A stretch of 64,000 nucleotides of DNA, taken from positions 15,504-79,503 of the forward strand of contig LBQD01000003.1 in the NCBI GenBank assembly GCA_000990585.1, read 5' to 3'. The stretch is from Candidatus Moranbacteria bacterium GW2011_GWE2_35_2- (lineage in GTDB: Bacteria > Patescibacteriota > Minisyncoccia > Moranbacterales > UBA9337). Both the position numbers and the translations under genes were made by a program. Below are positions 2,390 to 60,289 of this stretch, one piece after another; within the stretch, counting starts at the first letter, position 1, and every line of letters starts with the position of its first letter. A model generated the notes under the pieces. That model had not been told where the DNA came from, did not search any database, and was given only the letters and a program-made list of their open reading frames with translations.

Positions 2390-5300
2390 TTGAAAATTAA
2401 AAACGCAATGCCAAAACTAAAACTTACAATATTATTCCTAGCCTTCATATTTCTTCCGACCATCGCTCATGGGGCGACTGAATTTATCTCCGTCATCGAT
2501 CCTGACAATGGTTCTGGAACAGATTACACTTCTCTTTCTGCTTGGGAAGCGGCGAATCAAGTTGATTTAACTGCGGCGACTACTTTGGTGATTGCCGGAA
2601 GTTTGACGCGTGGAACGATTGCTGATGGGACTCCGATAACCCAGACCACCTCGGGAGCCACGGCGGTTTGCGTCCATCACACTGAAACGCAAATGCTCAT
2701 CTCTACTCTTAGTGGAACTCCCAATGCCACCGACACTTGGTTTCCGACCGTTGATGGAAGCGACGCAACCAATGCTTGGACTCCGACCGATGCCGGCGAC
2801 AGTGCTATTGCGATTGCCAAATGCCGATCTACTTCTGGAACTGCCGACACAACTGCCGTTACCGTTGACGGTTGGACAACTTCCGCCGACAATTACATCA
2901 AAATCTGGACCGACCCAAGCGAGAATTATCGGCATCAGGGGAAGTGGGATGAGGGGAAGTATCGGCTGGAAGTTCCTCAGATATCCGGCGGAGGTAGTGG
3001 AATTAGAATTTTGGAAGAATATGTTTGGATTGATGGTTTACAAATCAAAAGAGTTATAACAACCGAGGCGGGGCAAGCCTGTGTCGCCGTAGGTGGGGCT
3101 TCTGGTGAAATTAAAATTTCTAATAATGTGTGTGAAATCAAAAATAACACTACATATTATGAATATGGTATTTATAAATATACACTATCTTCATCGGCAA
3201 CTTATAAAATTTGGAACAATGTAATATACGGAGTTGTAGATACTGACAATAATTCTGGAAGCGGAATGTATTTGGCAGCTGTAAGTCCTGTAGCAGAGAA
3301 TACTTATGTATATAACAATACAGTGGTTGGCTCATATTATGGAATTGCAAAAAGTGGTGGTACATGTATTTCCAAAAACAATATCGCCTACAACAACACC
3401 ATCGACTATTCCGGTACATTTGATTCATCCTCAACCAACAATCTTTCTAAAGACGCAACCGCTCCGCCATATAATACATATTATACCAACACCAGCGTTA
3501 TTTTCGCCGACGAAACCAATCAAGACTTTCATCTTGATTCCGCCGATACCGCCGCTCGCAATCAAGGCGCGATTCTTTACGACTCCGGCGATGATGCCAA
3601 TTTGAATTTTACAACCGACATCGACAACAATGCCCGCTTGGATAGCGCGGGGACTTGGGATATTGGGGCGGATGAGGGGATTACGAAAGTTTACCGCAGT
3701 GTCGGACCATCTGCCACGGCCGCCATCGCTACCGGTGCGACCTATGGCAATGTGGAAGTGAAGCCGGTGTATGTTTCCGGCTCAACCACTAACATCGCAG
3801 ATTATGTGGCGACTTTTTGGTCTGATTTGCCGATTAATGTCGGAGTAGGCGACGCTTTGCAATATGACGATGACGACGACGGAGATATTGACGCGTCCGA
3901 TTCTATTGTTTTTATCACCAAAAGAATTGATGCCTCGCATTTCAGCGTCCGCACCGCCAGCGGAACCGCGCCCGCCAGCACTCTTGCGCCGGATTCGAAT
4001 TGGTCAATTTTTCGCTCATACACTTCGCTTTTCAATGCCGAAGCCGGAGATGAGAATGATTCCATTGATGACGATTTGGAAGCGTTTGAAAGCTGGAGCG
4101 GAGGAAAAGATCTGCAAACAAGCCAGGAGCAATGGAATATCGCGGCGTATGCCGGACAAGGTGGCGTGGCAGATACGGTGGCGGTGGCTATTGATGGTTG
4201 GACGACGACAGCGGATTCATATATCAAAGTTTATACTCCGACTAGGAGCGATGAGGTTGGGGTGAGCCAGCGGCATAGTGGAGTATGGGATGCGACAAAA
4301 TACAATTTGTCGACGGGGACGGGAGTAGCTTCGGTGGATCTGAGGGAGAATTATACGGTTTTTGACGGTTTACAGATAACAAATTCCGGCACCGCCTCAA
4401 CGGATAATGATATTCTTGTTGCGGGATATATTAGCTTTACGAATGTGAAAAATTCCATCATTAAGGGTGGATATAATGGAATATATCATAGTGTGAGCAA
4501 TATTATTTATGGTGGAAATAAATTTTACGGAAATATTATTTATGAGACATATTATTCCGGGATAAGGATATATTTATCAGGCGCCACCCCATTGTCTTCG
4601 TATGTATATAATAATACCGTGTACAATTGCAATGCCAGTAATACAGCATGGAGAGGCGGAATAGAAACATTGAATGCTGATGTTGTCAAAAACAATATCT
4701 CAATGGAAAATGGAAATTTGGATTTTGTGAATGCCAATGGTCAATCCTACAACATATCCTCCGATGCAACTGCTGTCGGTACCGGAAGCCTTGCTAGTCA
4801 AACTCTTTCTAATATCGCTTTTGTTTCCACCACAAGCGGTATTGGCACCGACCTTTCCAACGACCCATACATACCATTCAATACCGACATTGATTCCGCT
4901 TGCTTGCGAAAAGATAAGCAATCAAGAGTATCCAATGGCGGGGATGATTCTTGCTACACAAGACCCAAAGGAACAAACTGGGATATCGGTGCGCATGAGC
5001 TTATTACGAAAATTTACCGAAGCGTCGCGCCGGATGCGGACGGGACTTTGGAAGCGCTCACCACCGGTGCAAGCAACGCAATGACTATCGCCAGCTCAAC
5101 CGCCACTTTCGCCACTGCTTTGGCGGACAACATCGGCGTGGGCGACGCTATTCAATATGACGCTGACGGCGACGGAGATATTGATGCGTCCGATTCCATC
5201 GTTTTCATTTCCGGCCGAACGGACAGCACCCACTTCACCGTCAAAACCGCCAGCGGAACCGTTCCAACCGCCGTTTCCGCCGACACGGATTGGAGCCTTT

Positions 5301-7606: not shown

Positions 7607-7731
7607 TTAGGGTGCAGTGATTATGAGCGGATGGGGAGAGTAGTTCCAATGACAAATCAAATCAAAAATCCAAATGACGAAATATAGCAATCGGCTTGAT
7701 TTTTAGCGTATTTTATGCTAATATATTAGAT

Positions 7732-8034
7732 ATGAATAGCTTGAAGATCAAAGTTAATAAGTTGTTTTGGTTTTTAGGAAAGGGCGGGGATTTTTCCAAA
7801 GATCGACATTTGATTATCCATCAAACGCTGGCTTTGGGATCGATGCAGGACGTACAAAGACTTTTTCGGGAATACGGACAAGAGAGCATAACGCATGAAT
7901 TTCAAAAACCAGTTTCGGGTCTTTACACTCCCGCAGTGTTTCATTTTTTTGAGCATATCTTGGGTGTTGAAATAAAAAATAGCGGGCGATATATTAAAAA
8001 TATACATGGAAAAACTTCATTTAGACATTCTTGA
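7732..8034 (+). CDS. Small protein translationally coupled to the AbiEii-like nucleotidyltransferase; putative cognate antitoxin or partner
   Basis: ~100-aa ORF whose 3' end overlaps the start of the downstream NTase gene by 29 nt, an arrangement typical of toxin–antitoxin pairs. No recognisable motif. The alternative start 7696 is further upstream. Confidence 0.35.
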   Translation: MNSLKIKVNKLFWFLGKGGDFSKDRHLIIHQTLALGSMQDVQRLFREYGQESITHEFQKPVSGLYTPAVFHFFEHILGVEIKNSGRYIKNIHGKTSFRHS

Positions 8035-8653
8035 TCAAGAGAGAAAGAATATTTTCCAAAAACTTTCCGCTTTCCGATCAATCGGATATTTGTCAGGCGG
8101 AACAGCTTTGGCGTTGCAACTGGGACACCGGGTGTCATATGATTTTGATATTTTTTGCGCCAAAGAAATTCCAGCGATGTTCGCTGCTAAAGTTCAAAAA
8201 GAAATAGTTGTCCGTCAAGTGCTGGTGAATAATAGTGATGAATTTACATTTCTTACCGACCACGACATTAAAGTGTCTTTTATTTTCTATCCTTTTGATT
8301 TGAAAAAATACGTGTTTGAATTTCCAGACGTTCCTATGGAATTAATTTCCCCACTGGGTATTGCGATTACAAAGGCTTATGCGCTAAACAGGCGGAATGC
8401 TTGGCGTGATTATGTTGATTTGTATGTAATTTTGAAAAAAGAAATCACGACTCTGGAAAATATTGTCAATGCGGCTCGCATTGCGTATGGGGAATTGTTT
8501 AATGAAAAGCTTTTTTTATCGCAACTATTATACACGCAAGATATTTCAAAGGCGGAAATAGAGAATACGCAAATGCTTGAATCAGCGACGCTTTTTGAAG
8601 TTGTGTCTTTTTTTGAAAAAGAAGTCAAAGCATATTGGGAAAGAAAGCTGTAA
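8006..8653 (+). CDS. AbiEii/DUF1814-type nucleotidyltransferase (type IV TA / abortive-infection toxin family)
   Basis: GYLSGGTALALQLGHRVSYDFDIF matches the GGTAL...R.S.D.D motif of the AbiEii nucleotidyltransferase fold. Size is 215 aa. Confidence 0.6.
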   Translation: MEKLHLDILDQERKNIFQKLSAFRSIGYLSGGTALALQLGHRVSYDFDIFCAKEIPAMFAAKVQKEIVVRQVLVNNSDEFTFLTDHDIKVSFIFYPFDLKKYVFEFPDVPMELISPLGIAITKAYALNRRNAWRDYVDLYVILKKEITTLENIVNAARIAYGELFNEKLFLSQLLYTQDISKAEIENTQMLESATLFEVVSFFEKEVKAYWERKL

Positions 8654-8656
8654 TAA

Positions 8657-8757
8657 TAGCTGGCTCGGAATCGGAAATGAAACTTCCGATGTCAATTCTG
8701 ACGGAGTTGTGAATACGAGGGATTTGGGAATAATGATGAGCGGATGGGGAGAGTAGC
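8657..8757 (+). pseudogene. Orphan 3'-end fragment of a beta-helix/dockerin surface-protein gene
   Basis: ctggctcggaatcggaaatgaaacttccgatgtcaatt(c/t)(c/t)gacggagttgtgaatacgagggatttggg... is near-identical to 18703-18808 (the C-terminus of the 17319-18809 protein, ...LGIGNETSDVNSDGVVNTRDLG.MMSGW). Here it sits directly after the unrelated NTase gene. Confidence 0.8.
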
Positions 8758-8783
8758 TTATTTAAATGACAAATTTCCAATTA

Positions 8784-8925
8784 ACCCCCTCCCCTTTGAA
8801 GGGGAGGGTTGGGGAGGGGTTAGAAACTATGGATAACCAAAAATCCAAACAATTATGAAAAAACCTCAGAAACAAAGAAAGTTTCACACCTCCCCCAACC
8901 CCTCCTCCCGAGGAGGGGAGGAAAG
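8784..8925. repeat. Two GC-rich palindromic / G-quadruplex-type elements in an AT-rich intergenic region
   Basis: 8784-8821 CCCCCTCCCCtttgaaGGGGAGGGttGGGGAGGGG is a perfect hairpin and contains four G-runs (G4 A G3 TT G4 A G4). 8888-8922 cctcccccaacccctcctcccgaggaggggagg is a C-rich mirror of it, giving a G4 motif on the minus strand plus a hairpin. Confidence 0.6.
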
Positions 8926-8993
8926 CTAGTTGGAAACTATTGTGATATAATTTGTTTGTTGGATGTAAATAAAAAAATAATAGTAAAAATATT

Positions 8994-16905: not shown

Positions 16906-18809
16906 ATGAATATAATAATTTTACTAAAACATAAGCTAAGTATATTTTTAGTTAGTTGTATATTTATTTATTTGGGATCGGTAGGTGTGTCGGCTGCCAG
17001 TTTTCCTGTTCTATTATTTTCCGATCTCACCGACGCTCCTGTTTCCGGCTGGGAAGGTTCGCCAACCAAAGGAGCAGCCATATCCATTTGGGGAAGAAAT
17101 CTTGGAACAGAAAGAGGTTCTTCCTATGTAACCATAGGAGGAGTCAATCTTACCAATGACAGTGATTATGCCGAATGGGGAGCGACAACTAACCCAACAA
17201 CTGCCAGCGGACAACAAAGAATAACTTTCTGGCTCAATTCTTCACTTTTTACACAAGAAATACTGGAAATATTTATTTTGTCAGTACGACAGGGAATGAT
17301 TCAAATGACGGGCTTAGTGTGGCGAGTGCTTGGACCACTTTTGGAAAGGCTCGTGAAACTGTTGTTGCAGGAGATGTTGTGTATTTTAAATCTGGAATAT
17401 GGACAGCTTATGATCATGGTTCAACGTGGGCCAATGCTGTGCTCTATTTTAGGACAACTTCCGGTGTTTCTAATCATAACAACGGGACATTAAATAATAG
17501 TATTGCTTTTTCTTCGTATCCCGGAGAGGTTGCGCAAATGTGTAATGGAAATAATGCCGATGGCGGAAATGCAACCAGTGGTTTTTATCGACATGGTGAT
17601 AGCGTGCAAGATCGCCTTGAATACTGGACCTTATCGAAGTTTAAAGTTGTAGCGTGGCATTATGGTTTCAAGTGGTCAAATATAGATTTAACCTATGATA
17701 ATAATCTTCGTATAATCGGTTGGGATGCCACAACAACCATTCCAAGAACGGATATAAATACCCCGGAATCTATTGGCGGACAAATAATGTCGCAAAACGG
17801 AGATCAGGATGATATTTATATTCTCGGAAATTATATGCACCATTCCGGATTGTCTTCAGAAGAAGATGAAGATAATTTTGGTTATAAAGTTCAATCAATA
17901 TATATTAGCGGATTTAACGGACAATATTCAAATATACATATAGGACATAATGATTTTGCTCATAACAGCGGAAATTTGCAGGTTTATGCGCACAATTCTT
18001 CTGATATTATTGATGATATTTATATTTATGATAATTGGTTTCATGATGGCGGAACAACGGGAATGGTTTTAAATGGCGGTGATGGATTAACTGAATATTC
18101 TTTTATTACGACGGCTTATGTTTATAATAATATTTTTTCAAATAATCTTAGTTATGCTGCCAAATTAACTGATGGGTCGACAGGAAGCCATGGGGGCACA
18201 TTTTATTTTTATAATAATACATGCTACAACAATAGTGATGCGGAAATTTTTAGTCCCAATCCTGCGGCATTGTATGTTGTAAATAATATCTTTCAAACAT
18301 CGGCGTTGGTTTATTTTTCTTATTCTCCGGGAGATGATTCTGGAAATTTTGGTTCTCATAATCTTTTTTATGGTTCTGTTGGTGCTATTCCAAGCTGGTC
18401 AACTAATAATATTATTATTAACCCTCTTTTCACCTCTCCTTCCACTAATGATTTCACTCTCCAATCAACTTCCCCCGCTATCAATGCAGGCACAACCCTC
18501 GCTTCGGTTCCCAACGACTTTCTCGGAGTCTCCCGTCCCCAAGGGATATCCTATGACATCGGAGCTTTTGAATATGTTAGCGCAGCCGAAGAAACCTGCA
18601 CCGACAACATCCAAAACCAAGACGAAACTGGAATCGATTGCGGAGGAGTATGTGAGGCTTGCGTCGTTCCGATAACTTATGGATTAAGCAACTTCATCTC
18701 CGCCATCACCAACTGGCTCGGAATCGGAAATGAAACTTCCGATGTCAATTCCGACGGAGTTGTGAATACGAGGGATTTGGGGGTGATGATGAGTGGGTGG
18801 TCAAATTAA
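16906..18809 (+). pseudogene. Secreted right-handed beta-helix protein with a Cys-rich motif and a dockerin-like C-terminal tail, interrupted by a -1 frameshift at a T5 tract
   Basis: A signal peptide ORF (16906-) in frame 1 runs into junk after ~17250. Frame 3 opens at 17193 and continues NTGNIYFVSTTGNDSNDGLSVASAWTTFGKARETVVAGDVVYF (a typical beta-helix N-cap) to ...SRPQGISYDIGAFEY...CTDNIQNQDETGIDCGGVCEAC...DVNSDGVVNTRDLGVMMSGWSN. Inserting one T at 17246-17250 restores a single ORF. Confidence 0.75.
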
Positions 18810-20205: not shown

Positions 20206-20582
20206 GGATATTGCTAGTAAATAATTTGTTTGATTATTTAAAAGCCTTCGCAAAATTGAAATTTAAAACTCGGGATTGTCTGAAAAATACATCCCTTGGC
20301 ACAAAATAATCATTGTGCTTATGGATGTGTTTTTTGTTCGTAAATATTCGAGCGAAATTCAAGAACTTTGACAATTGAATCCTAGTTAATAAAACTAGCG
20401 TAAATAATCGCAATTTTTTGCGGTTAGTCCTTTGGCACGCCAAAGCTTCTTTGAAGCGTAGGCGGCCTATATCCGCCGTTGCTCTTATGAGCTATGGCGT
20501 GACGAAGTTAGAGTCTATTCAAAACTAAAGAATTTATTTTCTTTTTTATACGAATGAATAAGTATTTATACTTGTCATTCTT

Positions 20583-22123
<1,541 letters not shown>

Positions 22124-22136
<13 letters not shown>

Positions 22137-51821: not shown

Positions 51822-53423
51822 ATGGGACTTCAAAGGATAATATCAACAAAGAAAGGTATCATATTTGTTTTCGTGGGATTTTTAGTTTTTAGTTGGATTT
51901 TTTCAGGTTGTTTACAAATCGGAAAGTTTCCTCCTGAAATAAAAAAAGCATTAGCTGATTCGACCGCGGAATATCCATCGGCAAATAATGGAGGTTGGGA
52001 TGCTGATGAAAGTAATGCTTATACAGATGATACTTCATACGCTTCCACGACTCCTAATACAAATTCGACTGAATCTGTTGAATATGGAAGTTTTGGATTT
52101 GATTCTTTGATTCCCACAGGCTCAACTATAAATTCCGTAACAATAGAATTAGTGTGGTATATGAGTACTTCGGCTTCCAATGCTACATTACGGGTGGATG
52201 CACTTGTAAATAATGGAGTTGTGGGAACGCAAGAATCCGATACGACAGAACCGACATCTGATAAAACTACATCTTATGAGAATGACTATGGATCATGGAG
52301 CAGGGATGATCTTTTGGATGGAGTTTTCGAGGTACGGGTGGGGGCGCAGAGAGGCGGCGGTAGTACCGGATATACTATGTATCTGGATTACGTAAAAGTC
52401 ACGGTGGATTATTCAGCATTAACCACCCCAACTGTTTCCACTCAGGCCGCATCAAGCGTGGAAATTTCTACAGCAACGGGAAATGGAAATATCATCAGTA
52501 CTGGTGGAGAAAATGCTGACAAACGAGGATTTGTTTATGACACTTCAACAAAAAGTTTACCTGGTAATGTTGCTCCAACCTCATCTGGTTATGCATATTA
52601 TGCCGAAGATTCGGGAAGCTATGGAACGGGCGCATTCACTAAGGGTTTGAGCAGTTTGAGTGCTAATGTTACTTACTATATTCGCGCTTATGCACATAAT
52701 TCAGCGGGTTATAGTTATGGAGGAGAGGTTAATTTTCTTACTAAGCCTGATTCACCATCAACTATTAACTTTACTAATATTTGTTTGGATTCTTTGAGAA
52801 TTAATTGGATAGCTCCAGCAGGTGGAGCCAGTAGTTATAAAATAGAACGTTGCGAAGGAACTGGTTGCAGTGATTTCTTGCAAATTACTTCCGGAGAGAC
52901 AAATGTTTATTACGATGATTCCGGACTTAGCGCTGGAACTACATATAGATATCGAGTGCGGGCAACTAATGCTACGGGCGATAGTGATTACTGTGCTCCG
53001 GATGAAACAACAACAGAAGCTGCCTCTATTTCGATAGTAGTAGAGGATGGAAGTGGGACTGTTTCGTATGGCATAGTGAATACTTCTCAAAACACAACCA
53101 GCTCCGGCGTTGATCAAACGCAAACAGTCAGGAATAATGGAAATGTTGCTGAAGATTTTGATATTAAAGGTCAGGATTCAGAGGATTGGATTTTGGCGGG
53201 GGTTGCCGGCGATGCCTCATATAAACACGAATGGTGCACTAGTAGTTGCGATTCCAGTCCGATTTGGAATGTCATGACAACGACTTATGATAGTGATTAT
53301 TTATCTACTAATATTCCGGTTGATGGTACGGTTAGTTTTGATTTAAAAATTACAATTCCAACCGCTAATCCGGGAACAAATCAGCAGACTGTGGATGTTT
53401 TTGTTCGTGCCACGCAACATTGA
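51822..53423 (+). CDS. Surface protein with an Fn3 domain and a C-terminal beta-sandwich domain paralogous to 53563-54060
   Basis: N-terminal transmembrane/signal segment. Fn3: PDSPSTINFTNICLDSLRINWIAP...YRYRVRATNATGDS. The C-terminal domain is VSYGIVNTSQNTTSSGV...EDFDIKG...WILAG...TIPTANPGT. Confidence 0.6.
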   Translation: MGLQRIISTKKGIIFVFVGFLVFSWIFSGCLQIGKFPPEIKKALADSTAEYPSANNGGWDADESNAYTDDTSYASTTPNTNSTESVEYGSFGFDSLIPTGSTINSVTIELVWYMSTSASNATLRVDALVNNGVVGTQESDTTEPTSDKTTSYENDYGSWSRDDLLDGVFEVRVGAQRGGGSTGYTMYLDYVKVTVDYSALTTPTVSTQAASSVEISTATGNGNIISTGGENADKRGFVYDTSTKSLPGNVAPTSSGYAYYAEDSGSYGTGAFTKGLSSLSANVTYYIRAYAHNSAGYSYGGEVNFLTKPDSPSTINFTNICLDSLRINWIAPAGGASSYKIERCEGTGCSDFLQITSGETNVYYDDSGLSAGTTYRYRVRATNATGDSDYCAPDETTTEAASISIVVEDGSGTVSYGIVNTSQNTTSSGVDQTQTVRNNGNVAEDFDIKGQDSEDWILAGVAGDASYKHEWCTSSCDSSPIWNVMTTTYDSDYLSTNIPVDGTVSFDLKITIPTANPGTNQQTVDVFVRATQH

Positions 53424-53562
53424 TGGGATTTATTATTTTTAGAGATAGATTATCCTGTGGATAAGTTATTGCTTGACATTCAAAAATATGGTATAATAAA
53501 ATATATTTAATCTTAATTATTGCTTGTAATTTTAAAAGCAATAAAAAGGTAAAACAAAAAAT

Positions 53563-54060
53563 ATGAAAGTATTAATTTGTCATATTGCTGTCGTTGTATT
53601 GATGGCAATATTTGTCGGCACAGCAGTTCTTGGTGCCGATAGCGGTCAGGTTGCTGCAACAGTTACTGCGTCGGTAATTGCAGTTACCGTTAGTGATGGG
53701 GGTGTGGCGTACGGAACTGTCGCCACTTCAGAAGATACAACATCTTCTGGCGTTAATGATACTCAAACAATAACAAATACCGGAACGGTCAATGAAGATT
53801 TTGAAATTAAGGGGGTTGATACTACCCACTGGACATTAGCCGGAGCCGCCGGTGATGCTACATATGCTCATAAAACTTGTATTGCTGATTGCGATACTAC
53901 ACCAAGTTGGACAGCAATGACAACGAGTTATACTGATTTGGATACAGGGAAAACACCTTCAGCAACTACAGCACTTGATCTTCAGATAACAGTTCCGACT
54001 GCTAATGCGGGAACGGCTCAGGAAACGGCGAATGTTGACATTTTAGCGACAGCTAGCTAG
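53563..54060 (+). CDS. Small secreted protein, paralog of the C-terminal domain of the upstream Fn3 protein (possible WxL/fimbrial-like surface subunit)
   Basis: Signal peptide, then VAYGTVATSEDTTSSGVNDTQTITNTGTVNEDFEIKGVDTTHWTLAGAAGDATYAHK...ITVPTANAGTAQETANVDILA. About 45% identical to 51822-53423 residues ~405-533. Confidence 0.5.
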   Translation: MKVLICHIAVVVLMAIFVGTAVLGADSGQVAATVTASVIAVTVSDGGVAYGTVATSEDTTSSGVNDTQTITNTGTVNEDFEIKGVDTTHWTLAGAAGDATYAHKTCIADCDTTPSWTAMTTSYTDLDTGKTPSATTALDLQITVPTANAGTAQETANVDILATAS

Positions 54061-54117
54061 TATTTCTGGTATATTCTTGAAAATAGATAGTTTGGTAAAT
54101 TTGATTAAGATATTATA

Positions 54118-54744
54118 ATGCAAAAAAACTGTTTTCTTGTTTTGATATTAGCAGGAGTAGTTTTTATTCCCGGTATAATCTTGGCGTCGCTTGGAGTTGG
54201 AGTAGGGACGGGAAAAATTGAGTTTGATCAACCATTAAAAATGGGAGGAATTTATATTTCTCCTCCTTTAAATGTAATCAATACCGGTGACGAAGCGGCG
54301 GATTATGGGGTTTCTATTGAATATAAACAAGATCAACCTAGAATATCTCCACCTAAAGATTGGTTTTCTTTTGAGCCCGAGTTTTTTCATTTAGATCCTG
54401 GGCAATCGCAGGTTGTGCAGGTGAAAATAAGTATTCCTGTTAAATCTCATCCCGGAGAATATTTCGCTTATCTCGAGGGGCATCCTGTGCGAAAAATAGA
54501 TACATCCGGAGGTGCTTCCATTGGAATTGGAGCGGCGGCAAAATTGTATTTTGAAATTTCTCCTGCTAATATATTCCAAGGATTTTATTATCGTGCCGTT
54601 TCAGTTATAAAAAATAATGCCCCATGGTCATATATTATTTTGTTAGTACTGGTTGCAAGTATTTTAATAAATATTTTCAAAAAATATTTTTCTTTTAATA
54701 TTGGAATTACTCGAAAAAAAGTAGAAAAAATAGAAACTGAATAA
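54118..54744 (+). CDS. Secreted beta-sandwich protein with a C-terminal transmembrane anchor (DUF916-like topology)
   Basis: Signal peptide, a central domain, and a C-terminal transmembrane segment WSYIILLVLVASILINIF followed by a KK tail. Confidence 0.45.
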   Translation: MQKNCFLVLILAGVVFIPGIILASLGVGVGTGKIEFDQPLKMGGIYISPPLNVINTGDEAADYGVSIEYKQDQPRISPPKDWFSFEPEFFHLDPGQSQVVQVKISIPVKSHPGEYFAYLEGHPVRKIDTSGGASIGIGAAAKLYFEISPANIFQGFYYRAVSVIKNNAPWSYIILLVLVASILINIFKKYFSFNIGITRKKVEKIETE

Positions 54745-54768
54745 AAATGAAAAATAAAAATTATTTCA

Positions 54769-55788
54769 ATGAATTTATACAAAAGAATTTATTTTTTTTT
54801 GCTAAGTTTGACGGTTTCAGTATTTTTTGCTAACTTCTTGCTGTTTTTTTCAGTAGCAAAAGCAAATATTTCAGGAGTAATTACGACTACGGTGGCAGTG
54901 GGAGTATGTGGCAATAATATTGTTGAACTCGGAGAGAATTGCGACAGGTCATCTCTTGATGGTCAGACTTGTCAAAGTTTGGGATATGATGAGGGGGTTT
55001 TGAGTTGTACTGTCGGATGTGATTTTAATGTTTCCGAATGTATTAATTCGGAACCGGATAAGGGCAGTGTTATTTTTTCAGGAAAATCTTATCCATTAAG
55101 TGTCGTTAAGATTTTGAAAGATGGTCAAATTGCTGCCACTACGGCAGCTGACATCAATGGAAACTTTCAATCAACACTTTCCAATTTAATTATCGGATCA
55201 TATTCTTTTGCCATTTATGCTTACGATACTAATAACAATAAATCCAAAGCTGTTACATATAGGAAAAAAATAACAAAAGATGAAATTGAAAATATTTCAG
55301 ATATTCTGATACCTCCCACTATAGACATCGATGATGATGATGTTGACATTGGAGATAAAATTATGTTTTTCGGACAAAGTATTCCTAGATCAACATTGAC
55401 AATTCGCATAATTTCTGATGATGATTATTGGTCTTACCATGTGGTTGCTGGTAATAATGGATATTATTCTTATAAATTGGATACTGAAGATTTCGATGAA
55501 GATGATTACTCGGCTTATGCTTGGGCAACAATAAATGAAATGGTAAGTGATAATAGCACCGATGTATTATTTGAAATTGACCAAGCTTTATCCGATTCGA
55601 GAGATGAGTCGTCCAATGACTTGGCAACAGTTGATTTTAATGAAGATTCCAGGGTGAATATAATTGATTTTTCAATGCTCTTACATTGGTTTAATCGCAC
55701 AAATTTTCCATCCAAAATTGACATAAACAATGATAACAAAGTGAATATATTGGATTTTAGTATTATGATGTATCATTGGACGGGTTAA
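54769..55788 (+). CDS. Secreted protein with an N-terminal myxo-type Cys-rich repeat and a C-terminal tandem dockerin-like F-hand pair
   Basis: CGNNIVELGENCDRSSLDGQTCQ...C...C, then a C-terminal DFNEDSRVNIIDFSMLLHWF + DINNDNKVNILDFSIMMYHW: two ~22-aa Ca-binding-loop repeats of dockerin type. Confidence 0.65.
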   Translation: MNLYKRIYFFLLSLTVSVFFANFLLFFSVAKANISGVITTTVAVGVCGNNIVELGENCDRSSLDGQTCQSLGYDEGVLSCTVGCDFNVSECINSEPDKGSVIFSGKSYPLSVVKILKDGQIAATTAADINGNFQSTLSNLIIGSYSFAIYAYDTNNNKSKAVTYRKKITKDEIENISDILIPPTIDIDDDDVDIGDKIMFFGQSIPRSTLTIRIISDDDYWSYHVVAGNNGYYSYKLDTEDFDEDDYSAYAWATINEMVSDNSTDVLFEIDQALSDSRDESSNDLATVDFNEDSRVNIIDFSMLLHWFNRTNFPSKIDINNDNKVNILDFSIMMYHWTG

Positions 55789-55798
55789 TTTTTTAAGT

Positions 55799-56737
55799 AT
55801 GAAAAAAAATAAAGTTATCAAATTGTATATTTTTTTTCTGATAATTTTCGGAATTTTTTCTGATAGCTACGCTCAGGCTTCCGAAGTTTTCATAGAATCG
55901 GAGGGATATTTTGAAAAAGAAGAAAAAATGTATGAAATAGCAGTTTTTATTGACAATGAGGGAAAAAATATCAATGCTTTAGAGGGCGAAATGTTTTTCA
56001 TGAATGATGATTTTGATTTTCAAAAAATAATAGATGGAGGATCTATTATAAATTTTTGGATAGAAAATCCACGAAAGGTATCCGATGGAAAGATTATTTT
56101 TTCAGGAGGAATTCCGGGAGGATATAATGGAAATAAAGGTTTCTTGTTTTCTGTTGTTTTTAGTGCCTCTAAGAATGTGATAATGAATGACACAGCAGAA
56201 ATATCACTTCAGAATTTAAGAGTGTATTTGAATGATGGTAAAGGAACTATGGAAAACCTGAATGATTTTAAAGTCGTCATAAAATTAAATGAAATAAATT
56301 TGAAAGAAAAAGTGATTGACGAAAAACCCCCGGAGATTTTTGCTCCATATATAACACGAGATCCGAATTTATCCGACGAACAATGGATTGTAATTATGAG
56401 TGCTCAGGATAAAGGTGACGGTGTCGATTATTATGAAGTTTATGAATCTGAGAAAAAGCATGATATGGAGGAGATTATCAATGATAATTCTATACCATGG
56501 AAAACGGTTGAAGATAAAAATATTTATATTTTGCAGGATCAAAAACTTGGAAGTTATATTTATGTAAAAGCAGTGGATAAGGCGGGAAATGCAAGAGTGG
56601 TTTTTGCAACACCGGCTATTAGTGAAAAAAAACAACTCTTTAATTATAAGGTTATTTTAGGTATAATAATGGTAGTTATTATCGGAATTGCGCTACTGTT
56701 TGAATTTTTTGTTTTTCGGGAAAGAAAAATAAAATAG
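55799..56737 (+). CDS. Cohesin-like domain surface protein with a C-terminal transmembrane anchor
   Basis: Signal peptide. Cohesin-like beta-sandwich (YEIAVFIDNEGKNINALEGEMFFMNDDFDFQKIIDGGSIINFW...GFLFSVVFSA). Ig-like domain (YYEVYE...VKAVDKAGN). Transmembrane segment ILGIIMVVIIGIALLF plus a basic tail. Confidence 0.6.
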   Translation: MKKNKVIKLYIFFLIIFGIFSDSYAQASEVFIESEGYFEKEEKMYEIAVFIDNEGKNINALEGEMFFMNDDFDFQKIIDGGSIINFWIENPRKVSDGKIIFSGGIPGGYNGNKGFLFSVVFSASKNVIMNDTAEISLQNLRVYLNDGKGTMENLNDFKVVIKLNEINLKEKVIDEKPPEIFAPYITRDPNLSDEQWIVIMSAQDKGDGVDYYEVYESEKKHDMEEIINDNSIPWKTVEDKNIYILQDQKLGSYIYVKAVDKAGNARVVFATPAISEKKQLFNYKVILGIIMVVIIGIALLFEFFVFRERKIK

Positions 56738-56751
56738 AAATAAATAAAATT

Positions 56752-58803
56752 ATGTTTGTATTGACGAAAATAAAAATTATTGTGTTTATCGGATTTTTAT
56801 TTTTTTTATTTGCGACAGAGAGAGAAAAAACTTTAGCTGCTACATTATCATTAACTCCAAGCAGTGGATCATTTGAAATTGGAAGTACTTTTGATGTTTC
56901 TATTATTCTTAATACAGAAGGAAAAAATATTAATGCGGTTAAAGCGTCGCTACTTTTTCCGCCTAATGATTTGCAGGTAGTTTCACCATCCGTCGGACGT
57001 TCGATAGCAAGTGTTTGGGCTGTTTCTCCGACATATGATAATAATGCGGGAACAATAAATTTGGAATGCGGATTTCCTAATGGAATAAATGCAACAAGTG
57101 GGCTTATTACTACAATTACTTTTCGAGTTAAGGGGAATGGATCTGTTATTTTAAGATTCAAAGATGATTCAAAAGTTCTTTTAGATAATGGCAAAGGAAC
57201 TGATGATTTGAATCAGATTAATAATGGTGTATATACTTTGATTCTACCTTCTCCAAATGGTCCAGAAGTTATTTCTGAAACACACACTGATCAGTCGCGC
57301 TGGTATAAGGAATCCTCGGTTATTTTAAAATGGGTCGATCCGGACCCGGAATTAACTGAAAATTATAGTTATATTATAAATGATATTCCGGATGATATTC
57401 CGGATGATATTGCCGAGGGCGATAAAAATAATATATCATATAAAAGTCTTCCTGATGGACGTAATTATTTTCATATTAAGGCTTTAAATAAGGATAAAGT
57501 TTGGGGAGGAACTACTCATTATGCTATTAATATAGATACTATTCCACCAGCTGAATTTCCTGTTGATATCTTTCCTTCAAATAAGACTTCAAGAAGAAAT
57601 CCTATCATTCAGTTTATTACTACTGATAATTTTTCTGGCATTGATCATTATGAGGTAAAAGTTGTTCCTTTGAGTAATGTTAATGATTATAGTCAAGAAA
57701 ATCAAGATAAGCAGATAATGTTTATTGAAGCAAAAAGTCCTTATTCAATTCAAAATTTGGAAATCGGGAGTTATGATGTTATTGTACGTTCTTATGATAC
57801 GGCGGGAAATTATCATGATTCCATTCAAAAATTAAAAATTACTAATACTGCTTTTCAGTTTATCGGTGATGATGGATTGACAATAGGGGAGCGGGAAATT
57901 ATTTCTTGGCGTTGGGTTTTATTAGTATTTTTGGCTATTATATTTTTTTTGGCATATACTGTTTGGCGTCTTAAACATCATCATAAAAAAATCGAAAAAG
58001 ATATAATTGATAAAAAATTGCCGCCGGAGATTAGAAAAAAGATAGAGGAATTAAAGCGGTTGAAAGAAAAATATAAAGGAATAGTAATTATATCTTTTAT
58101 AATTGTTGGTAGTTTATTTTCGAATTTTTCAGTTAAAGCTGAAGATAATTTTTTAGAAATAAATCCTCCGCTGATAACTACGATTTCAAAAAATATTTCC
58201 AATAATGAAATTTTTTATGCTGGAGGAAGAGTGGAAACAGCCGAAACTAAGATAATTCTTTATATCAAAAATAGTAAAACAGGCGAAACCTTTAATAAAG
58301 AATTTTCAACGGACAATAAGGGGGAGTGGTTTTATCGCAATGACGGATTTCTTTCGGACGGGGAGTATATTCTATGGGCACAAAGTAAGGTAGGACAACA
58401 ATTAAGTCCTCCAAGTCCTCAAGTCAAAATGTTTGTAAATAAAACAGCTATTCAAATAGGCGCTTCCAGAATAAGCTATGAGTTATTGCTTTTCTTGATT
58501 ATAAGTGTATTAATTTGCATTATCTTAGTATTAATTTTTTATATATCGGTATCTATTAAAAAGATAAAAAAAAGATCTCTATTATTTAGAAAAGAGATTG
58601 ATGAGGTTGAAAGTGTTGTACATAAGGGATTTATGATGTTGCATCGTGAGATTAGTAATGAATTGAAAATTATTGGAAGAAATAAGCGTAAATCTTTTTG
58701 TGAAAAAGAAGATGCTCATAAGGAGCATTTGATGAATGATTTGATAAAAATAGAGCGTCATATTGAAAAGGAGCTTAATGATGTCGAGAGGTTGCTAGGG
58801 TAG
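56752..58803 (+). CDS. Large cohesin-like scaffold protein with four predicted transmembrane segments
   Basis: Cohesin-like: LSLTPSSGSFEIGSTFDVSIILNTEGKNINAVKASLLFPPNDLQVVSPSVG...GLITTITFRVKGNGSVILRF. Ig-like domains follow. Transmembrane segments at ~aa 10-30, 388-408, 445-462 and 600-622, with a coiled-coil C-terminal tail. Confidence 0.6.
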   Translation: MFVLTKIKIIVFIGFLFFLFATEREKTLAATLSLTPSSGSFEIGSTFDVSIILNTEGKNINAVKASLLFPPNDLQVVSPSVGRSIASVWAVSPTYDNNAGTINLECGFPNGINATSGLITTITFRVKGNGSVILRFKDDSKVLLDNGKGTDDLNQINNGVYTLILPSPNGPEVISETHTDQSRWYKESSVILKWVDPDPELTENYSYIINDIPDDIPDDIAEGDKNNISYKSLPDGRNYFHIKALNKDKVWGGTTHYAINIDTIPPAEFPVDIFPSNKTSRRNPIIQFITTDNFSGIDHYEVKVVPLSNVNDYSQENQDKQIMFIEAKSPYSIQNLEIGSYDVIVRSYDTAGNYHDSIQKLKITNTAFQFIGDDGLTIGEREIISWRWVLLVFLAIIFFLAYTVWRLKHHHKKIEKDIIDKKLPPEIRKKIEELKRLKEKYKGIVIISFIIVGSLFSNFSVKAEDNFLEINPPLITTISKNISNNEIFYAGGRVETAETKIILYIKNSKTGETFNKEFSTDNKGEWFYRNDGFLSDGEYILWAQSKVGQQLSPPSPQVKMFVNKTAIQIGASRISYELLLFLIISVLICIILVLIFYISVSIKKIKKRSLLFRKEIDEVESVVHKGFMMLHREISNELKIIGRNKRKSFCEKEDAHKEHLMNDLIKIERHIEKELNDVERLLG

Positions 58804-60053: not shown

Positions 60054-60091
60054 AAACAACCTCTTTTGTGAGATTGTTTTTATTTTATGTG

Positions 60092-60165
60092 TGGGCGATC
60101 CAGGACTCGAACCTGGGACCTCAGCATTATCAGTGCTGCGCTCTAACCACCTGAGCTAATCGCCC
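60092..60165 (-). tRNA. tRNA-Ile (anticodon GAU)
   Basis: Reverse complement: GGGCGATTAGCTCAGGTGGTTAGAGCGCAGCACTGATAATGCTGAGGTCCCAGGTTCGAGTCCTGGATCGCCCA. Cloverleaf with the anticodon loop cuGAUaa. Confidence 0.95.
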
Positions 60166-60213
60166 TTAAAAACGAAAATGCTGCGCCGCGTGATGAGCGT
60201 AGCGAATTTTACG

Positions 60214-60289
60214 TGGTGGACCGGACAGGACTTGAACCCGCTACCTCCTCGGTGCAAGCGAGGCGCTCTACCAGGTGAGCTACCGGCCC
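60214..60289 (-). tRNA. tRNA-Ala (anticodon UGC), CCA encoded
   Basis: Reverse complement: GGGCCGGTAGCTCACCTGGTAGAGCGCCTCGCTTGCACCGAGGAGGTAGCGGGTTCAAGTCCTGTCCGGTCCACCA. G3:U70 Ala identity pair. Confidence 0.95.

What the first reader, a model, noticed from the sequence alone, without database searches (positions are those of the whole stretch)
51822..58803. Candidate cohesin–dockerin-type cell-surface assembly system
Two adjacent genes (55799-56737, 56752-58803) encode cohesin-like beta-sandwich domains on transmembrane-anchored scaffold proteins. The gene just upstream (54769-55788) ends in a textbook duplicated dockerin F-hand (DFNEDSRVNIIDFSMLLHWF / DINNDNKVNILDFSIMMYHW). Elsewhere in the window, the large beta-helix surface proteins end in a dockerin-like DVNSDGVVNTRDLGVMMSGW tail. 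Together these look like a non-cellulosomal cohesin–dockerin display system: dockerin-tagged beta-helix 'cargo' docking onto membrane-anchored cohesin scaffolds, in a small-genome CPR-like organism. Such organisms are thought to live attached to host cells, so this could be their attachment or decoration machinery. The cluster also contains an Fn3 protein, two paralogous small secreted beta-sandwich subunits and a C-terminally anchored DUF916-like protein. The 683-aa scaffold has an unusual topology: extracellular cohesin, a transmembrane segment, a cytoplasmic basic linker, a second transmembrane segment, a second extracellular Ig-like module, a third transmembrane segment, and a cytoplasmic coiled-coil tail.
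Basis: partly seen in the sequence, partly recalled or inferred. Interest (0 to 1): 0.85.

Follow-up and report, generated by a model that had tools for sequence, protein, structure and literature searches.

The report
Conserved membrane cohesin–dockerin module in Patescibacteria
A tiny-genome (CPR/Patescibacteria) bacterium carries a three-gene set, conserved across many lineages of the phylum, that encodes a secreted dockerin-tagged protein next to two membrane-anchored cohesin proteins: the protein 'plug and socket' known from cellulosomes, here apparently reused as a fixed cell-envelope complex instead of an enzyme rack.

Summary
The six ORFs are real and at the stated coordinates. The window is Candidatus Moranbacteria GW2011_GWE2_35_2-. 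g4 (54769-55788) ends in a double-F-hand dockerin that passes Pfam's cut-off. g5 and g6 miss Pfam Cohesin themselves, but their families hit it (12/40 and 30/40), the two are paralogs, and AlphaFold models superpose on solved cohesins (TM 0.71-0.76).

Main new result: dockerin protein, then short cohesin protein, then long cohesin protein is a conserved module. All 61 related loci with enough upstream DNA have the dockerin gene. 60 of 61 have the second cohesin (3 as g5-g6 fusions). Only the dockerin is constant in g4 homologs, and no enzymes are attached. So this is a fixed-stoichiometry envelope complex, not a cellulosome.

g1-g3 resemble a Firmicutes WxL cluster, and g3 is a WxLIP/DUF916 homolog.

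The 'DVNSDG' tails are a real shared C-terminal tag (five adjacent secreted proteins in a related contig) but score below the dockerin threshold. Whether they dock on these cohesins is untested. Binding and function are inferred, not shown. Verdict: new variant of a known kind; interest 0.64.

The parts
51822..53423 (+). g1: 533-aa secreted large surface protein. Fn3 domain at aa 310-390 (nt 52749-52991). C-terminal g2-type domain at aa ~395-533 (nt 53004-53420).
   Evidence: ORF. Pfam fn3 42.2 bits. The C-terminal domain aligns with g2 at 51% identity and shares an invariant W-x-L motif. g1/g2/g3-like genes recur upstream of the triad in L026, L039 and L072.
53563..54060 (+). g2: 165-aa small secreted protein made of a signal peptide plus one g2-type beta domain. 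By architecture it is the 'small' partner of g1.
   Evidence: No Pfam or PDB sequence match.
54118..54744 (+). g3: 208-aa WxLIP/DUF916-like protein. It has a signal peptide, one Ig-like domain and a C-terminal TM anchor. Most relatives are 300-345 aa with two domains.
   Evidence: Hydropathy. A g3-like gene lies directly upstream of the dockerin gene in 20/63 loci. 2/13 family members hit PF06030 WxLIP_PGBD. The family profile hits EfmWxLIP1 9i25/9i1y at E 2.1e-5.
54769..55788 (+). g4: 339-aa secreted dockerin protein. It has a signal peptide, a Cys-rich repeat, Ig-like domains (Big_6) and a C-terminal dockerin (aa 262-339, nt 55552-55785; F-hands at 55633-55692 and 55720-55779).
   Evidence: Pfam Dockerin_1 33.3 bits vs cut-off 22.9, and Big_6 28.6 bits. 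Ca-ligand positions are conserved in 72 orthologous tails. 62/68 tails hit Dockerin_1. The family profile hits solved type I dockerins, 1daq E 1.9e-9.
55799..56737 (+). g5: 312-aa short cohesin anchor. Signal peptide; cohesin aa 27-165 (nt 55877-56293); Ig/Fn3-like domain aa 175-272 (nt 56321-56614); C-terminal TM helix aa 283-311 (nt 56645-56731).
   Evidence: 12/40 family members hit Pfam Cohesin. The family profile hits R. flavefaciens cohesin 5aoz at E 0.0034. hhalign vs the g6 family: probability 100%, E 1.4e-48. AF2 pLDDT 91.4. Foldseek top hits are all cohesins, e.g. 2w1n E 1.2e-10 and 2jh2_C TM 0.76.
56752..58803 (+). g6: 683-aa long polytopic cohesin anchor. Signal peptide; cohesin aa 28-167 (nt 56833-57252); two Ig-like domains aa 170-365 (nt 57259-57846); TM1, basic cytoplasmic loop and TM2 aa 383-461 (nt 57898-58134); fourth extracellular Ig domain aa 473-575 (nt 58168-58476); TM3 plus cytoplasmic helical tail aa 576-683 (nt 58477-58800).
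   Evidence: Family at ~45% full-length identity across Patescibacteria. 30/40 members hit Pfam Cohesin. AF2 pLDDT 75.7. The N-terminal domain superposes on type I cohesins 6kgf_C (TM 0.76, rmsd 2.5 A) and 2vn5_C/2vn6_A (TM 0.71-0.73). Topology. Per-domain conservation.
18741..18800 (+). Single F-hand (DVNSDGVVNTRDLGVMMSGW) in the C-terminal tag of ORF 17319-18809. This is a possible, unproven second class of docking tag.
   Evidence: Pfam Dockerin_1 16.6 bits, below cut-off, model positions 20-51 only. The tag matches the second F-hand of the triad-dockerin HMM at E 3e-5. It is preceded by a choice-of-anchor Q domain, 51.3 bits vs cut-off 25. The same ~45-aa tag ends five adjacent secreted proteins in L085.
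8688..8753 (+). Orphan copy of the same single-F-hand tag, separated from the 1738-aa surface-protein ORF by an AbiEii cassette.
   Evidence: (20.3 bits).

Best explanation
The region is one same-strand cell-envelope gene cluster of a Moranbacteria (Patescibacteria/CPR) genome.

Its 3' half (g4-g6) is a three-gene module conserved across many Patescibacteria lineages:
- g4 is a secreted protein whose only constant part is a C-terminal type-I-like double-F-hand dockerin.
- g5 is a single-pass membrane protein that displays one cohesin.
- g6 is a paralogous polytopic membrane protein. It displays one cohesin plus three Ig-like domains outside the cell and has helical segments in the cytoplasm.

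Proposed mechanism (inferred, not shown): after Sec export and signal-peptide cleavage, the Ca2+-loaded dockerin of g4 docks on the cohesin of g6 and/or g5 at the outer face of the cytoplasmic membrane. This would give a defined complex of one dockerin protein and two cohesin anchors, tied through g6 to the cytoplasm. One possibility is that the internally symmetric dockerin bridges the two cohesins.

It is a structural or organising envelope complex, not an enzyme-display scaffold. There are no tandem cohesins and no dockerin-borne enzymes, and the extracellular domains are unusually conserved.

The 5' half (g1-g3) resembles a Firmicutes WxL cluster by architecture: a large and a small secreted protein sharing a C-terminal domain, plus a membrane-anchored WxLIP/DUF916 homolog. 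It probably supplies the variable, outward-facing part.
For: Shown:
- Dockerin membership of g4.
- Cohesin homology and fold of g5 and g6.
- Topology.
- Synteny. Of 61 loci with at least 2.6 kb upstream of the g6 homolog, 61 have a dockerin protein upstream, 57 a separate g5-type gene and 3 a g5-g6 fusion.
- Dockerin-HMM hits elsewhere in those ~1 Mb number only 3, so the adjacency is not chance.
- g4 homologs range from 161 to 485 aa, and only the signal peptide and dockerin are constant.
- Natural g5-g6 fusions in several lineages keep both cohesins extracellular.
- g4, g5 and g6 are separated by 10-14 bp.
- The only cohesin-type and full dockerin ORFs in the 64-kb window are these three.
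- g6's extracellular domains are 51-55% identical across distant lineages.
- g3 is homologous to WxLIP.
- The large + small + WxLIP gene pattern matches the WxL-cluster definition in PMC10599100.

Inferred: physical binding, Ca2+ dependence, stoichiometry, and function.
Against: - No binding or complex model could be obtained.
- The window's own g5 and g6 do not hit Pfam Cohesin.
- Simultaneous binding of two cohesins by one dockerin has no support in the literature I could search.
- The window's own cytoplasmic tail is poorly conserved (32% identity), although the family-wide tail is conserved.
- The dockerin HMM used for the 61/61 count was built from tails in the same loci. The independent Pfam count is 62/68.
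- g2 shows no detectable WxL homology.
- The window's g3 has only one of the two WxLIP domains.
Confidence: 0.72

Rival explanations
1. First reader's model. g5 and g6 are general display scaffolds. Many dockerin-tagged surface proteins, including the beta-helix / choice-of-anchor-Q proteins with the single-F-hand 'DVNSDG' tag, dock on them to decorate the cell or attach it to a host. In a variant, the conserved g6 cohesin holds g4 while the more variable g5 cohesin (35% vs 54% identity) holds lineage-specific tags.
For: - The tag is real and shared. In L085, five consecutive signal-peptide proteins of different N-terminal content all end in the same ~45-aa tag.
- The tag follows a choice-of-anchor Q domain, 51.3 and 50.5 bits vs cut-off 25. 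From my own knowledge of NCBIfam naming, that domain class precedes interchangeable C-terminal anchoring signals.
- The tag matches the second F-hand of the triad dockerin HMM (E 2e-6 and 3e-5), with all Ca-ligand positions present.
- g5 and g6 are the only cohesins in the window.
- The g5 cohesin is more variable than the g6 cohesin.
Against: - The tags have one F-hand and fall below Pfam's dockerin cut-off in every case: 14.5-20.3 bits vs 22.9.
- The segment upstream of the F-hand is not significantly similar to dockerin helix 1 (shuffle p ~0.18).
- Positions 10-11 of the F-hand are T-R in the tag and I-I / I-L in g4. In type I dockerins these are specificity positions (established knowledge of the family), so the same socket is unlikely.
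- No such tails occur on other ORFs in ~1 Mb around the triads of 83 loci.
- A homolog search with the tag found only two close relatives, so the tag is lineage-restricted while the triad is found across many lineages.
- Each anchor has only one cohesin.
Confidence: 0.3
2. A small cellulosome-like polysaccharide-degrading complex. Cohesin/dockerin genes in another CPR organism were interpreted this way (Bell et al. 2022, PMC9123182).
For: Cohesin and type-I-like dockerin domains are present. A CPR organism was reported to express such genes.
Against: - No glycoside hydrolase, CBM or other catalytic domain occurs on g4 or any cluster gene.
- There is one cohesin per protein, with no tandem scaffoldin.
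- Minimal g4 homologs are a signal peptide, a ~55-aa module and the dockerin.
- The anchors are integral membrane proteins with cytoplasmic segments.
Confidence: 0.03
3. The cohesin-fold domains do not bind the neighbouring dockerin. They bind something else, such as cell-wall glycan or each other, and the dockerin protein has a different partner. The gene linkage would then reflect a shared pathway and not direct contact.
For: No interaction data exist. The cohesin domains are too diverged for Pfam to recognise in the window proteins. Cohesin-like folds with other roles exist; for example, the fold search also returns the collagen-binding ACE19 subdomain.
Against: - Adjacency is strict in 61/61 loci.
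- The best structural matches of both domains are cohesins crystallised with dockerins (2vn5, 6kgf, 4dh2, 5nrk).
- The dockerin profile hits the partner chains of some of those same complexes (2vn5_B, 6kgc_B).
Confidence: 0.1

Closest known systems
Non-cellulosomal cohesin-dockerin pairs of Clostridium perfringens glycoside-hydrolase toxins (GH84C cohesin+Fn3 module 2w1n; cohesins 2jh2, 2vo8; mu-toxin dockerin 2jnk/2ozn)
   Same: A single cohesin followed by an Fn3/Ig domain, which is the same two-domain layout as g5 (top Foldseek hit 2w1n, E 1.2e-10). A double-F-hand Ca-binding dockerin; the triad dockerin profile hits 2jnk at E 2.7e-4. The pair is used for protein-protein assembly unrelated to cellulose.
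   Different: In C. perfringens the modules sit on secreted enzymes that complex with one another. Here the cohesins are on integral membrane proteins, the dockerin protein carries no enzyme, and the three genes form a fixed module conserved across many lineages of a phylum.
Cellulosome cell-surface anchoring scaffoldins with type I cohesins (e.g. C. thermocellum OlpC, 4dh2; C. cellulolyticum and C. acetobutylicum CohA-Doc complexes 2vn5/2vn6, 6kgf)
   Same: A cell-surface cohesin receives a type-I-like dockerin. These are the best structural matches of the g6 cohesin (TM 0.71-0.76). The dockerin has two near-symmetric repeats, as in dual-binding-mode dockerins.
   Different: Anchoring is by TM helices, not by SLH domains or sortase. 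There are no tandem cohesins, no enzymes and no CBM. g6 adds a second extracellular domain between TM2 and TM3 and a cytoplasmic helical tail.
Archaeoglobus fulgidus non-cellulosomal cohesin (2xdh), and the survey of non-cellulosomal cohesin/dockerin modules in the three domains of life (Peer et al. 2009; cited from my own knowledge, not read here)
   Same: Cohesin/dockerin modules occur in organisms with no cellulolytic lifestyle. 2xdh is among the g5 fold hits.
   Different: Those are scattered modules of unknown partnership. Here the partner genes are adjacent and co-conserved.
WxL clusters of Lactobacillales/Bacillales (small WxL + large WxL + WxLIP = DUF916-DUF3324-TM; Hassan et al. 2023, PMC10599100)
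   Same: g1 is large, with N-terminal binding-type domains and a C-terminal domain shared with g2. g2 is small, with that domain only. g3 is an Ig-fold protein with a C-terminal TM helix and is homologous to WxLIP.
   Different: The g2-type domain has no detectable WxL homology and only one invariant W-x-L motif. The window's g3 has one domain, not two. WxL clusters are reported almost only in Firmicutes and are not linked to cohesin/dockerin genes.
Reports of cohesin/dockerin genes in CPR (Bell et al. 2022, PMC9123182: expressed in Ca. Shapirobacterales and read as a cellulosome; Wang et al. 2023, PMC10633639: essential dockerin-domain protein SEML1_0315 in a Saccharibacterium)
   Same: Cohesin or dockerin domains have been noted in CPR genomes. 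NCBI already names many g5/g6 homologs 'cohesin domain-containing protein'.
   Different: Neither paper describes the conserved dockerin + two-cohesin module or the polytopic anchor. SEML1_0315 is a stand-alone 927-aa protein in a different gene context.

Membership tests
Cohesin (Pfam PF00963) | The protein's own sequence matches the curated family model | tested here: not met
   g5 and g6 give no Cohesin hit at E<=1 and no NCBIfam hit.
Cohesin (Pfam PF00963) | Homology to recognised cohesins through the protein's own family | tested here: met
   30/40 g6-family members (best E 7.8e-7) and 12/40 g5-family members (best E 4.1e-8) hit PF00963. The window proteins are 42-61% and 30-55% identical to those members. 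The g5 profile hits solved R. flavefaciens cohesins at E 0.0034.
Cohesin (Pfam PF00963) | Cohesin beta-sandwich fold that superposes on solved cohesins | tested here: met
   g6 N-terminal domain: 6kgf_C TM 0.76 / 2.5 A, 2vn5_C TM 0.73, 2vn6_A TM 0.71, 21% identity. g5: 16 of the top 21 PDB hits (13 of the top 16) are cohesin modules, with 2jh2_C at TM 0.76 / 3.3 A.
Cohesin (Pfam PF00963) | Binds a dockerin in a Ca2+-dependent way | not testable with these tools
This needs AF-Multimer or biochemistry.
Dockerin type I (Pfam PF00404), g4 | Match to the curated model above the gathering score | tested here: met
   33.3 bits (whole protein) and 37.3 bits (tail alone) vs cut-off 22.9. 62/68 orthologous tails hit at E<=1e-3. 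The profile hits 1daq/2mte at E 1.9e-9.
Dockerin type I (Pfam PF00404), g4 | Two ~22-residue repeats, each a Ca-binding loop (D1, N3, D5, N/D9, D12) followed by a helix | tested here: met
   DFNEDSRVNIID and DINNDNKVNILD in g4. These positions are 81-99% conserved in 72 tails, counting N/S/D at position 3 of repeat 2 (N alone 67%), and lowest at D5 of repeat 2.
Dockerin type I (Pfam PF00404), single-F-hand 'DVNSDG' tags | Match above the gathering score and a duplicated F-hand | tested here: not met
   14.5-20.3 bits, below 22.9, covering only model positions 20-52. There is one F-hand. The upstream segment is not significantly dockerin-like.
Cellulosome | Scaffoldin with tandem cohesins, and dockerins borne by carbohydrate-active enzymes | tested here: not met
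   One cohesin per protein. g4 and its homologs carry no catalytic domain.
WxL cluster (at least 1 WxLIP plus 2 WxL proteins within four genes; PMC10599100) | WxLIP: PGBD (DUF916) + HBD (DUF3324) + C-terminal TM helix | tested here: inconclusive
   The g3 family profile hits EfmWxLIP1 at E 2.1e-5 over ~150 residues. 2/13 members hit PF06030. A C-terminal TM is present. However, the window's g3 (208 aa) has a single domain, while relatives of 300-345 aa have two.
WxL cluster (at least 1 WxLIP plus 2 WxL proteins within four genes; PMC10599100) | Two WxL-domain proteins (one small, one large) with the dual Trp-x-Leu motif | tested here: not met
   The small/large architecture is mirrored by g2/g1. 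But there is no Pfam WxL hit at E<=5 and no PDB hit, and only one invariant W-x-L motif.
Choice-of-anchor Q domain proteins (NCBIfam NF041518) | Match above the curated cut-off, located just before a C-terminal anchoring signal | tested here: met
   ORF 17319-18809: 51.3 bits vs 25 at aa 375-419, followed by the tag. Two of five tagged L085 proteins also pass.

The most novel reading that the evidence does not exclude
The dockerin-cohesin-cohesin module is a core, housekeeping envelope machine of Patescibacteria. In this reading a secreted dockerin protein clamps a single-pass and a polytopic cohesin anchor into one transmembrane complex. That complex would link the cell surface (and, in some lineages, WxL-like or dockerin-tagged surface proteins and the giant surface proteins encoded just upstream) to a conserved cytoplasmic coiled coil. 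The cohesin-dockerin pair would then serve in envelope organisation or outside-in coupling, not in enzyme display. It would be the first cohesin-dockerin system with an integral-membrane, cytoplasm-reaching scaffold and conservation across many lineages of a phylum.
Probability: 0.35. Interest if true: 0.8.

Novelty: new variant of a known kind. Interest (0 to 1): 0.64.

Why it matters
Patescibacteria make up a large share of bacterial diversity, yet their envelope biology is almost unknown and most of their conserved surface proteins are 'hypothetical'.

This result provides a defined, testable three-protein module:
- It is present across many lineages of the phylum.
- It has clear domain boundaries and a predicted interaction, one dockerin with one or two cohesins.
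- Its anchor spans the membrane.

It extends the cohesin-dockerin principle from secreted or wall-bound enzyme scaffolds to an integral-membrane complex of fixed composition. It also corrects the tempting reading of CPR cohesin/dockerin genes as cellulosomes.

Further, it links a WxLIP (DUF916) homolog, so far reported almost only from Firmicutes, to this module. It identifies a short dockerin-like C-terminal tag shared by arrays of secreted proteins.

All of these leads can be checked with recombinant domains, without cultivating the organism.

Tried and rejected
1. Single-sequence searches of g5 and g6 against Pfam, NCBIfam and PDB found no cohesin hit. The full-length g6 family profile against PDB sequences also found nothing significant. 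Cohesin only emerged from per-member Pfam scans, the g5 profile and fold search.

2. Complex modelling.

4. I tested the idea that the tag is a dockerin with a degenerate first repeat. Similarity of the upstream halves is not significant (p ~0.18), so I dropped it.

5. WxL identity of g2 and the g1 C-terminus is not supported by Pfam or PDB. I keep it only as an architectural analogy.

6. SEML1_0315, the essential dockerin protein of Southlakia, is not an ortholog candidate. It is a stand-alone 927-aa protein between unrelated genes.

7. Promoter and terminator scans are no better than shuffled sequence (45 vs 38.8 +/- 5.1), so no operon boundaries can be claimed from them.

8. A literature search for dockerins that bind two cohesins at once found nothing relevant.

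9. Giant ORFs upstream of the triad in other loci show no detectable similarity to the window's large proteins.

Full report
**Observation**

The gaps between them are 139, 57, 24, 10 and 14 bp. I call them:
- g1: 51822-53423, 533 aa
- g2: 53563-54060, 165 aa
- g3: 54118-54744, 208 aa
- g4: 54769-55788, 339 aa
- g5: 55799-56737, 312 aa
- g6: 56752-58803, 683 aa

g5 is 100% identical to a protein of Candidatus Moranbacteria bacterium GW2011_GWE2_35_2-, so the 'CPR-like organism' guess is right.

**Dockerin**

g4 ends in DFNEDSRVNIIDFSMLLHWF … DINNDNKVNILDFSIMMYHW. It scores 33.3 bits on Pfam Dockerin_1 against a curated cut-off of 22.9, and it also has a Big_6 Ig domain. In 72 distinct orthologous tails, the Ca-ligand positions of both F-hands (D1, N3, D5, N/D9, D12), a D-F/L-S-I motif at the start of each helix, and the terminal Trp are nearly invariant. 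62 of 68 tails hit Dockerin_1 on their own. The family profile finds solved type I dockerins (CelS 1daq E 1.9e-9; also 2vn5_B, 6kgc_B and the C. perfringens dockerin 2jnk). Membership is met.

**Cohesins**

Neither g5 nor g6 hits Pfam Cohesin, NCBIfam or PDB sequences as a single sequence. Their families do:
- g6 belongs to a large family with ~45% identity over the full length across many Patescibacteria lineages. Many members are named 'cohesin domain-containing protein' by NCBI.
- 30 of 40 sampled g6-family members hit PF00963.
- 12 of 40 g5-family members hit PF00963, and the g5 profile hits Ruminococcus flavefaciens cohesins (5aoz, E 0.0034).

g5 and g6 are paralogs (hhalign probability 100%, E 1.4e-48). 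g5 residues 1-270 align to g6 residues 1-363, and g6 has one extra inserted domain.

AlphaFold models support the fold:
- g6 (pLDDT 75.7): the N-terminal domain superposes on type I cohesins 6kgf_C (TM 0.76, 2.5 A), 2vn5_C (TM 0.73) and 2vn6_A (TM 0.71, 21% identity).
- g5 (pLDDT 91.4): the top PDB hits are almost all cohesins. They are led by the cohesin+Fn3 double module of C. perfringens GH84C (2w1n, E 1.2e-10), which has the same two-domain layout as g5.

Both are therefore diverged cohesins, shown by transitive homology and by fold.

**Topology**

g5 has a signal peptide and a C-terminal TM helix, as do 38 of 40 family members.

g6 has four hydrophobic segments (2-20, 383-401, 443-461, 578-596), as do 32 of 40 family members. 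The charge distribution is as follows:
- The TM1-TM2 loop averages 10.7 K+R against 4.7 D+E in about 40 residues.
- The 25 residues after TM3 hold 6.8 K+R.
- The 25 residues before TM1 hold 2.7 K+R.
- The 118-residue domain between TM2 and TM3 is net acidic.

The model shows beta domains at 30-164, 172-261, 271-363 and 474-575, and long helices from 386, 425 and 576. This is a prediction, not a measurement.

**Synteny, the main new result**

Three look-ups of distant homologs all showed a dockerin-ending protein, then a ~300-aa cohesin protein, then a ~680-aa cohesin protein.

A scan of one genome per species gave 80 more loci. They come from Staskawicz-, Jorgensen-, Specht-, Sungii-, Buchanan-, Nomura-, Doudna-, Brenner-, Veblen-, Lloyd-, Kaiser-, Niyogi-, Vogel- and Liptonbacteria and others.

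Of 61 loci with at least 2.6 kb upstream of the g6 homolog:
- 61 have a dockerin protein upstream.
- 57 have a separate g5-type gene.
- 3 have a g5-g6 fusion.
- 2 have extra paralogs.
- 1 has no detectable g5.

Only 3 other dockerin-HMM hits occur anywhere else in this ~1 Mb. The dockerin HMM was built from tails in these same loci. The independent Pfam count (62/68) covers that caveat.

The dockerin proteins are 161-485 aa long. The minimal ones are a signal peptide, a ~55-aa module or a Cys-rich repeat, a Gly-rich linker and the dockerin, so the dockerin is the only constant part.

In the fusions, the g5 TM helix is followed by a short basic loop, and the g6 signal segment then acts as a second TM helix. 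Both cohesins therefore stay outside.

An exhaustive HMMER search found 2,397 clusters (at 50% identity) with E<=1e-30. These include many 400-470-aa single-pass 'cohesin-Ig-Ig-TM' forms.

**What it most likely is**

The best-supported reading is a cognate cohesin-dockerin complex of fixed composition at the outer face of the membrane. The secreted g4 would dock through its Ca-loaded dockerin on g6 and/or g5. Because one near-symmetric dockerin is always encoded with two cohesin anchors, and the anchors are sometimes fused, the dockerin may bridge the two. That step is speculative, and I found no precedent for it.

It is not a cellulosome. There is no tandem cohesin, no enzyme and no CBM.

The four extracellular domains of g6 are 51-55% identical between the window protein and 36 distant members, and the family's cytoplasmic tail is also conserved. 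That argues for conserved self-partners and a housekeeping envelope role, and against direct recognition of variable host surfaces. Binding, Ca dependence, stoichiometry and function are all inferred.

**The upstream half of the cluster**

g3-like genes (usually 300-345 aa: two Ig-like domains plus a C-terminal TM) lie directly upstream of the dockerin gene in 20 of 63 loci. Two of 13 members hit PF06030 (WxLIP_PGBD), which, as far as I recall, is the former DUF916. The family profile hits the solved E. faecium WxLIP1 (9i25/9i1y, E 2.1e-5).

In Firmicutes, a WxLIP is encoded with a small WxL protein and a large protein that carries the same domain at its C-terminus (PMC10599100). g2 (small) and g1 (large, Fn3, with a g2-type C-terminal domain) mirror that pattern and share one invariant W-x-L motif. 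No WxL homology is detectable, though. This is an architectural analogy plus one real homolog (g3), not a membership.

In 22 other loci a different small N-terminal-TM protein family takes the place of g3. In 22 of 44 loci a very large ORF lies just upstream.

**The 'cargo' tails**

The DVNSDGVVNTRDLGVMMSGW tails contain one F-hand. They score 16.6 and 20.3 bits on Dockerin_1, below the cut-off, and match only the second half of the model. They match the second F-hand of the triad-dockerin HMM (E 2e-6 and 3e-5).

One tail ends ORF 17319-18809, where it follows a choice-of-anchor Q domain (51.3 bits vs 25). The other is an orphan fragment beyond an AbiEii cassette.

A DNA scan for the tag found a related contig (L085) in which five consecutive signal-peptide proteins (440-637 aa, with different N-terminal parts) all end in the same ~45-aa tag.

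Points against docking on g5/g6:
- The scores are below threshold, and there is only a single F-hand.
- Positions 10-11 are T-R in the tag against I-I / I-L in g4.
- No such tails occur near the triads elsewhere.
- The tag is lineage-restricted.

I give this model about 0.3.

**Novelty**

Non-cellulosomal cohesin/dockerin modules are known. NCBI already labels many homologs as cohesin-domain proteins. CPR cohesin/dockerin genes have been mentioned twice: once read as a cellulosome (PMC9123182) and once as an essential stand-alone dockerin protein in a different context (PMC10633639). No paper in the searchable library describes the conserved dockerin + two-cohesin module, its polytopic anchor, or its link to a WxLIP homolog.

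I rate it a new variant of a known kind, with interest 0.64.

Noticed in passing
window 7570-8756: An AbiEii toxin gene (8006-8653, Pfam 49 bits) with a small upstream ORF sits between a degraded, out-of-frame copy of the F-hand tag at the end of the 1738-aa surface-protein ORF (…GAVIMSGWGE*, 7620-7644) and an intact orphan copy (8660-8756). The orphan copy is ~95% identical in DNA to the tag of ORF 17319-18809. It looks as if a toxin-antitoxin cassette was inserted or recombined at the tag, duplicating it.
   Followed up: partly
window 16906-18809: ORFs 16906-17493 (TIG domain) and 17319-18809 (choice-of-anchor Q + tag) overlap in different frames. Both match a single intact 637-aa protein in L085 (E 4.6e-37 and 4.7e-84). 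The window gene is probably one ~634-aa gene with a frameshift or an assembly error.
   Followed up: partly
L085 173-8631: An array of five adjacent genes (440, 588, 637, 621 and 525 aa), each with a signal peptide and the same ~45-aa C-terminal tag ending in a single F-hand. The N-terminal parts differ (TIG, DUF5123-like, choice-of-anchor Q, or nothing recognisable).
   Followed up: partly
L039 3270-6089, L072 6977-9790, L070 2019-4523; proteins P0024, P0037, P0038, P0047: Natural fusions of the short and long cohesin anchors (834-980 aa). The g5 TM helix, a short basic loop and the g6 signal segment form a helical hairpin.
   Followed up: yes
L001 6178-6555 and 23 other ORFs in 22 loci: A conserved small protein family (125-180 aa; N-terminal TM; consensus …VGKLVVLPEDEQPTIATVSDPEKLKDQAFFAKAKKGDKVLIYTKAKKAILYDPSENKIVEVAPLNIG) lies directly upstream of the dockerin gene in many loci that lack a g3-like gene. 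It is absent from the window.
   Followed up: partly
22 of 44 related loci (e.g. L001 1-6070, L021 753-5471, L056 3-4970): A very large ORF (700 to more than 2000 aa within the fetched stretch, often cut by the locus end) ends within 3 kb upstream of the dockerin gene. These ORFs lack dockerins and show no detectable similarity to the window's large proteins.
   Followed up: partly
window 20580-22135 (+) and 60091-60289 (-): A complete 16S rRNA gene stands alone. tRNA-Ile(GAT) and tRNA-Ala(TGC), which usually lie in the 16S-23S spacer, are 38 kb away on the other strand, just downstream of the cluster. The rRNA genes appear unlinked.
   Followed up: no
window 3866 and 5159 (within ORF 2390-7606): Two internal EF-hand-like acidic loops (YDDDDDGDIDASDSIVFI / YDADGDGDIDASDSIVFI) occur in repeated segments of the 1738-aa surface protein. 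They are not C-terminal and not dockerin tails.
   Followed up: no
window 8770-8930: G/C-rich inverted-repeat-like sequences (cccctcccctttgaaggggagggttggggagggg … cccccaacccctcctcccgaggaggggagg) lie just downstream of the orphan tag.
   Followed up: no
window 53473-53502: The best sigma-70-like match on the cluster's strand (TTGACA-18-TAAAAT, 11/12) lies in the g1-g2 gap, ~60 bp before g2. This would suit separate, strong expression of the small subunit, but the scan as a whole is not above shuffled background.
   Followed up: no
minimal g4 homologs, e.g. L024 5287-5772, L029 467-967, L036 4216-4737: Many short dockerin proteins share a ~55-aa N-terminal module (TDFSSxNFxVKDPVIxPGAGFATSxxFQLWSSLGQEAIGxSxxxxFxLKSGFLYF). 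Others, like the window's g4, have a Cys-rich repeat (CGNxxxExGExCD…C…GY/F…G.L.C…C.F..S.C).
   Followed up: no
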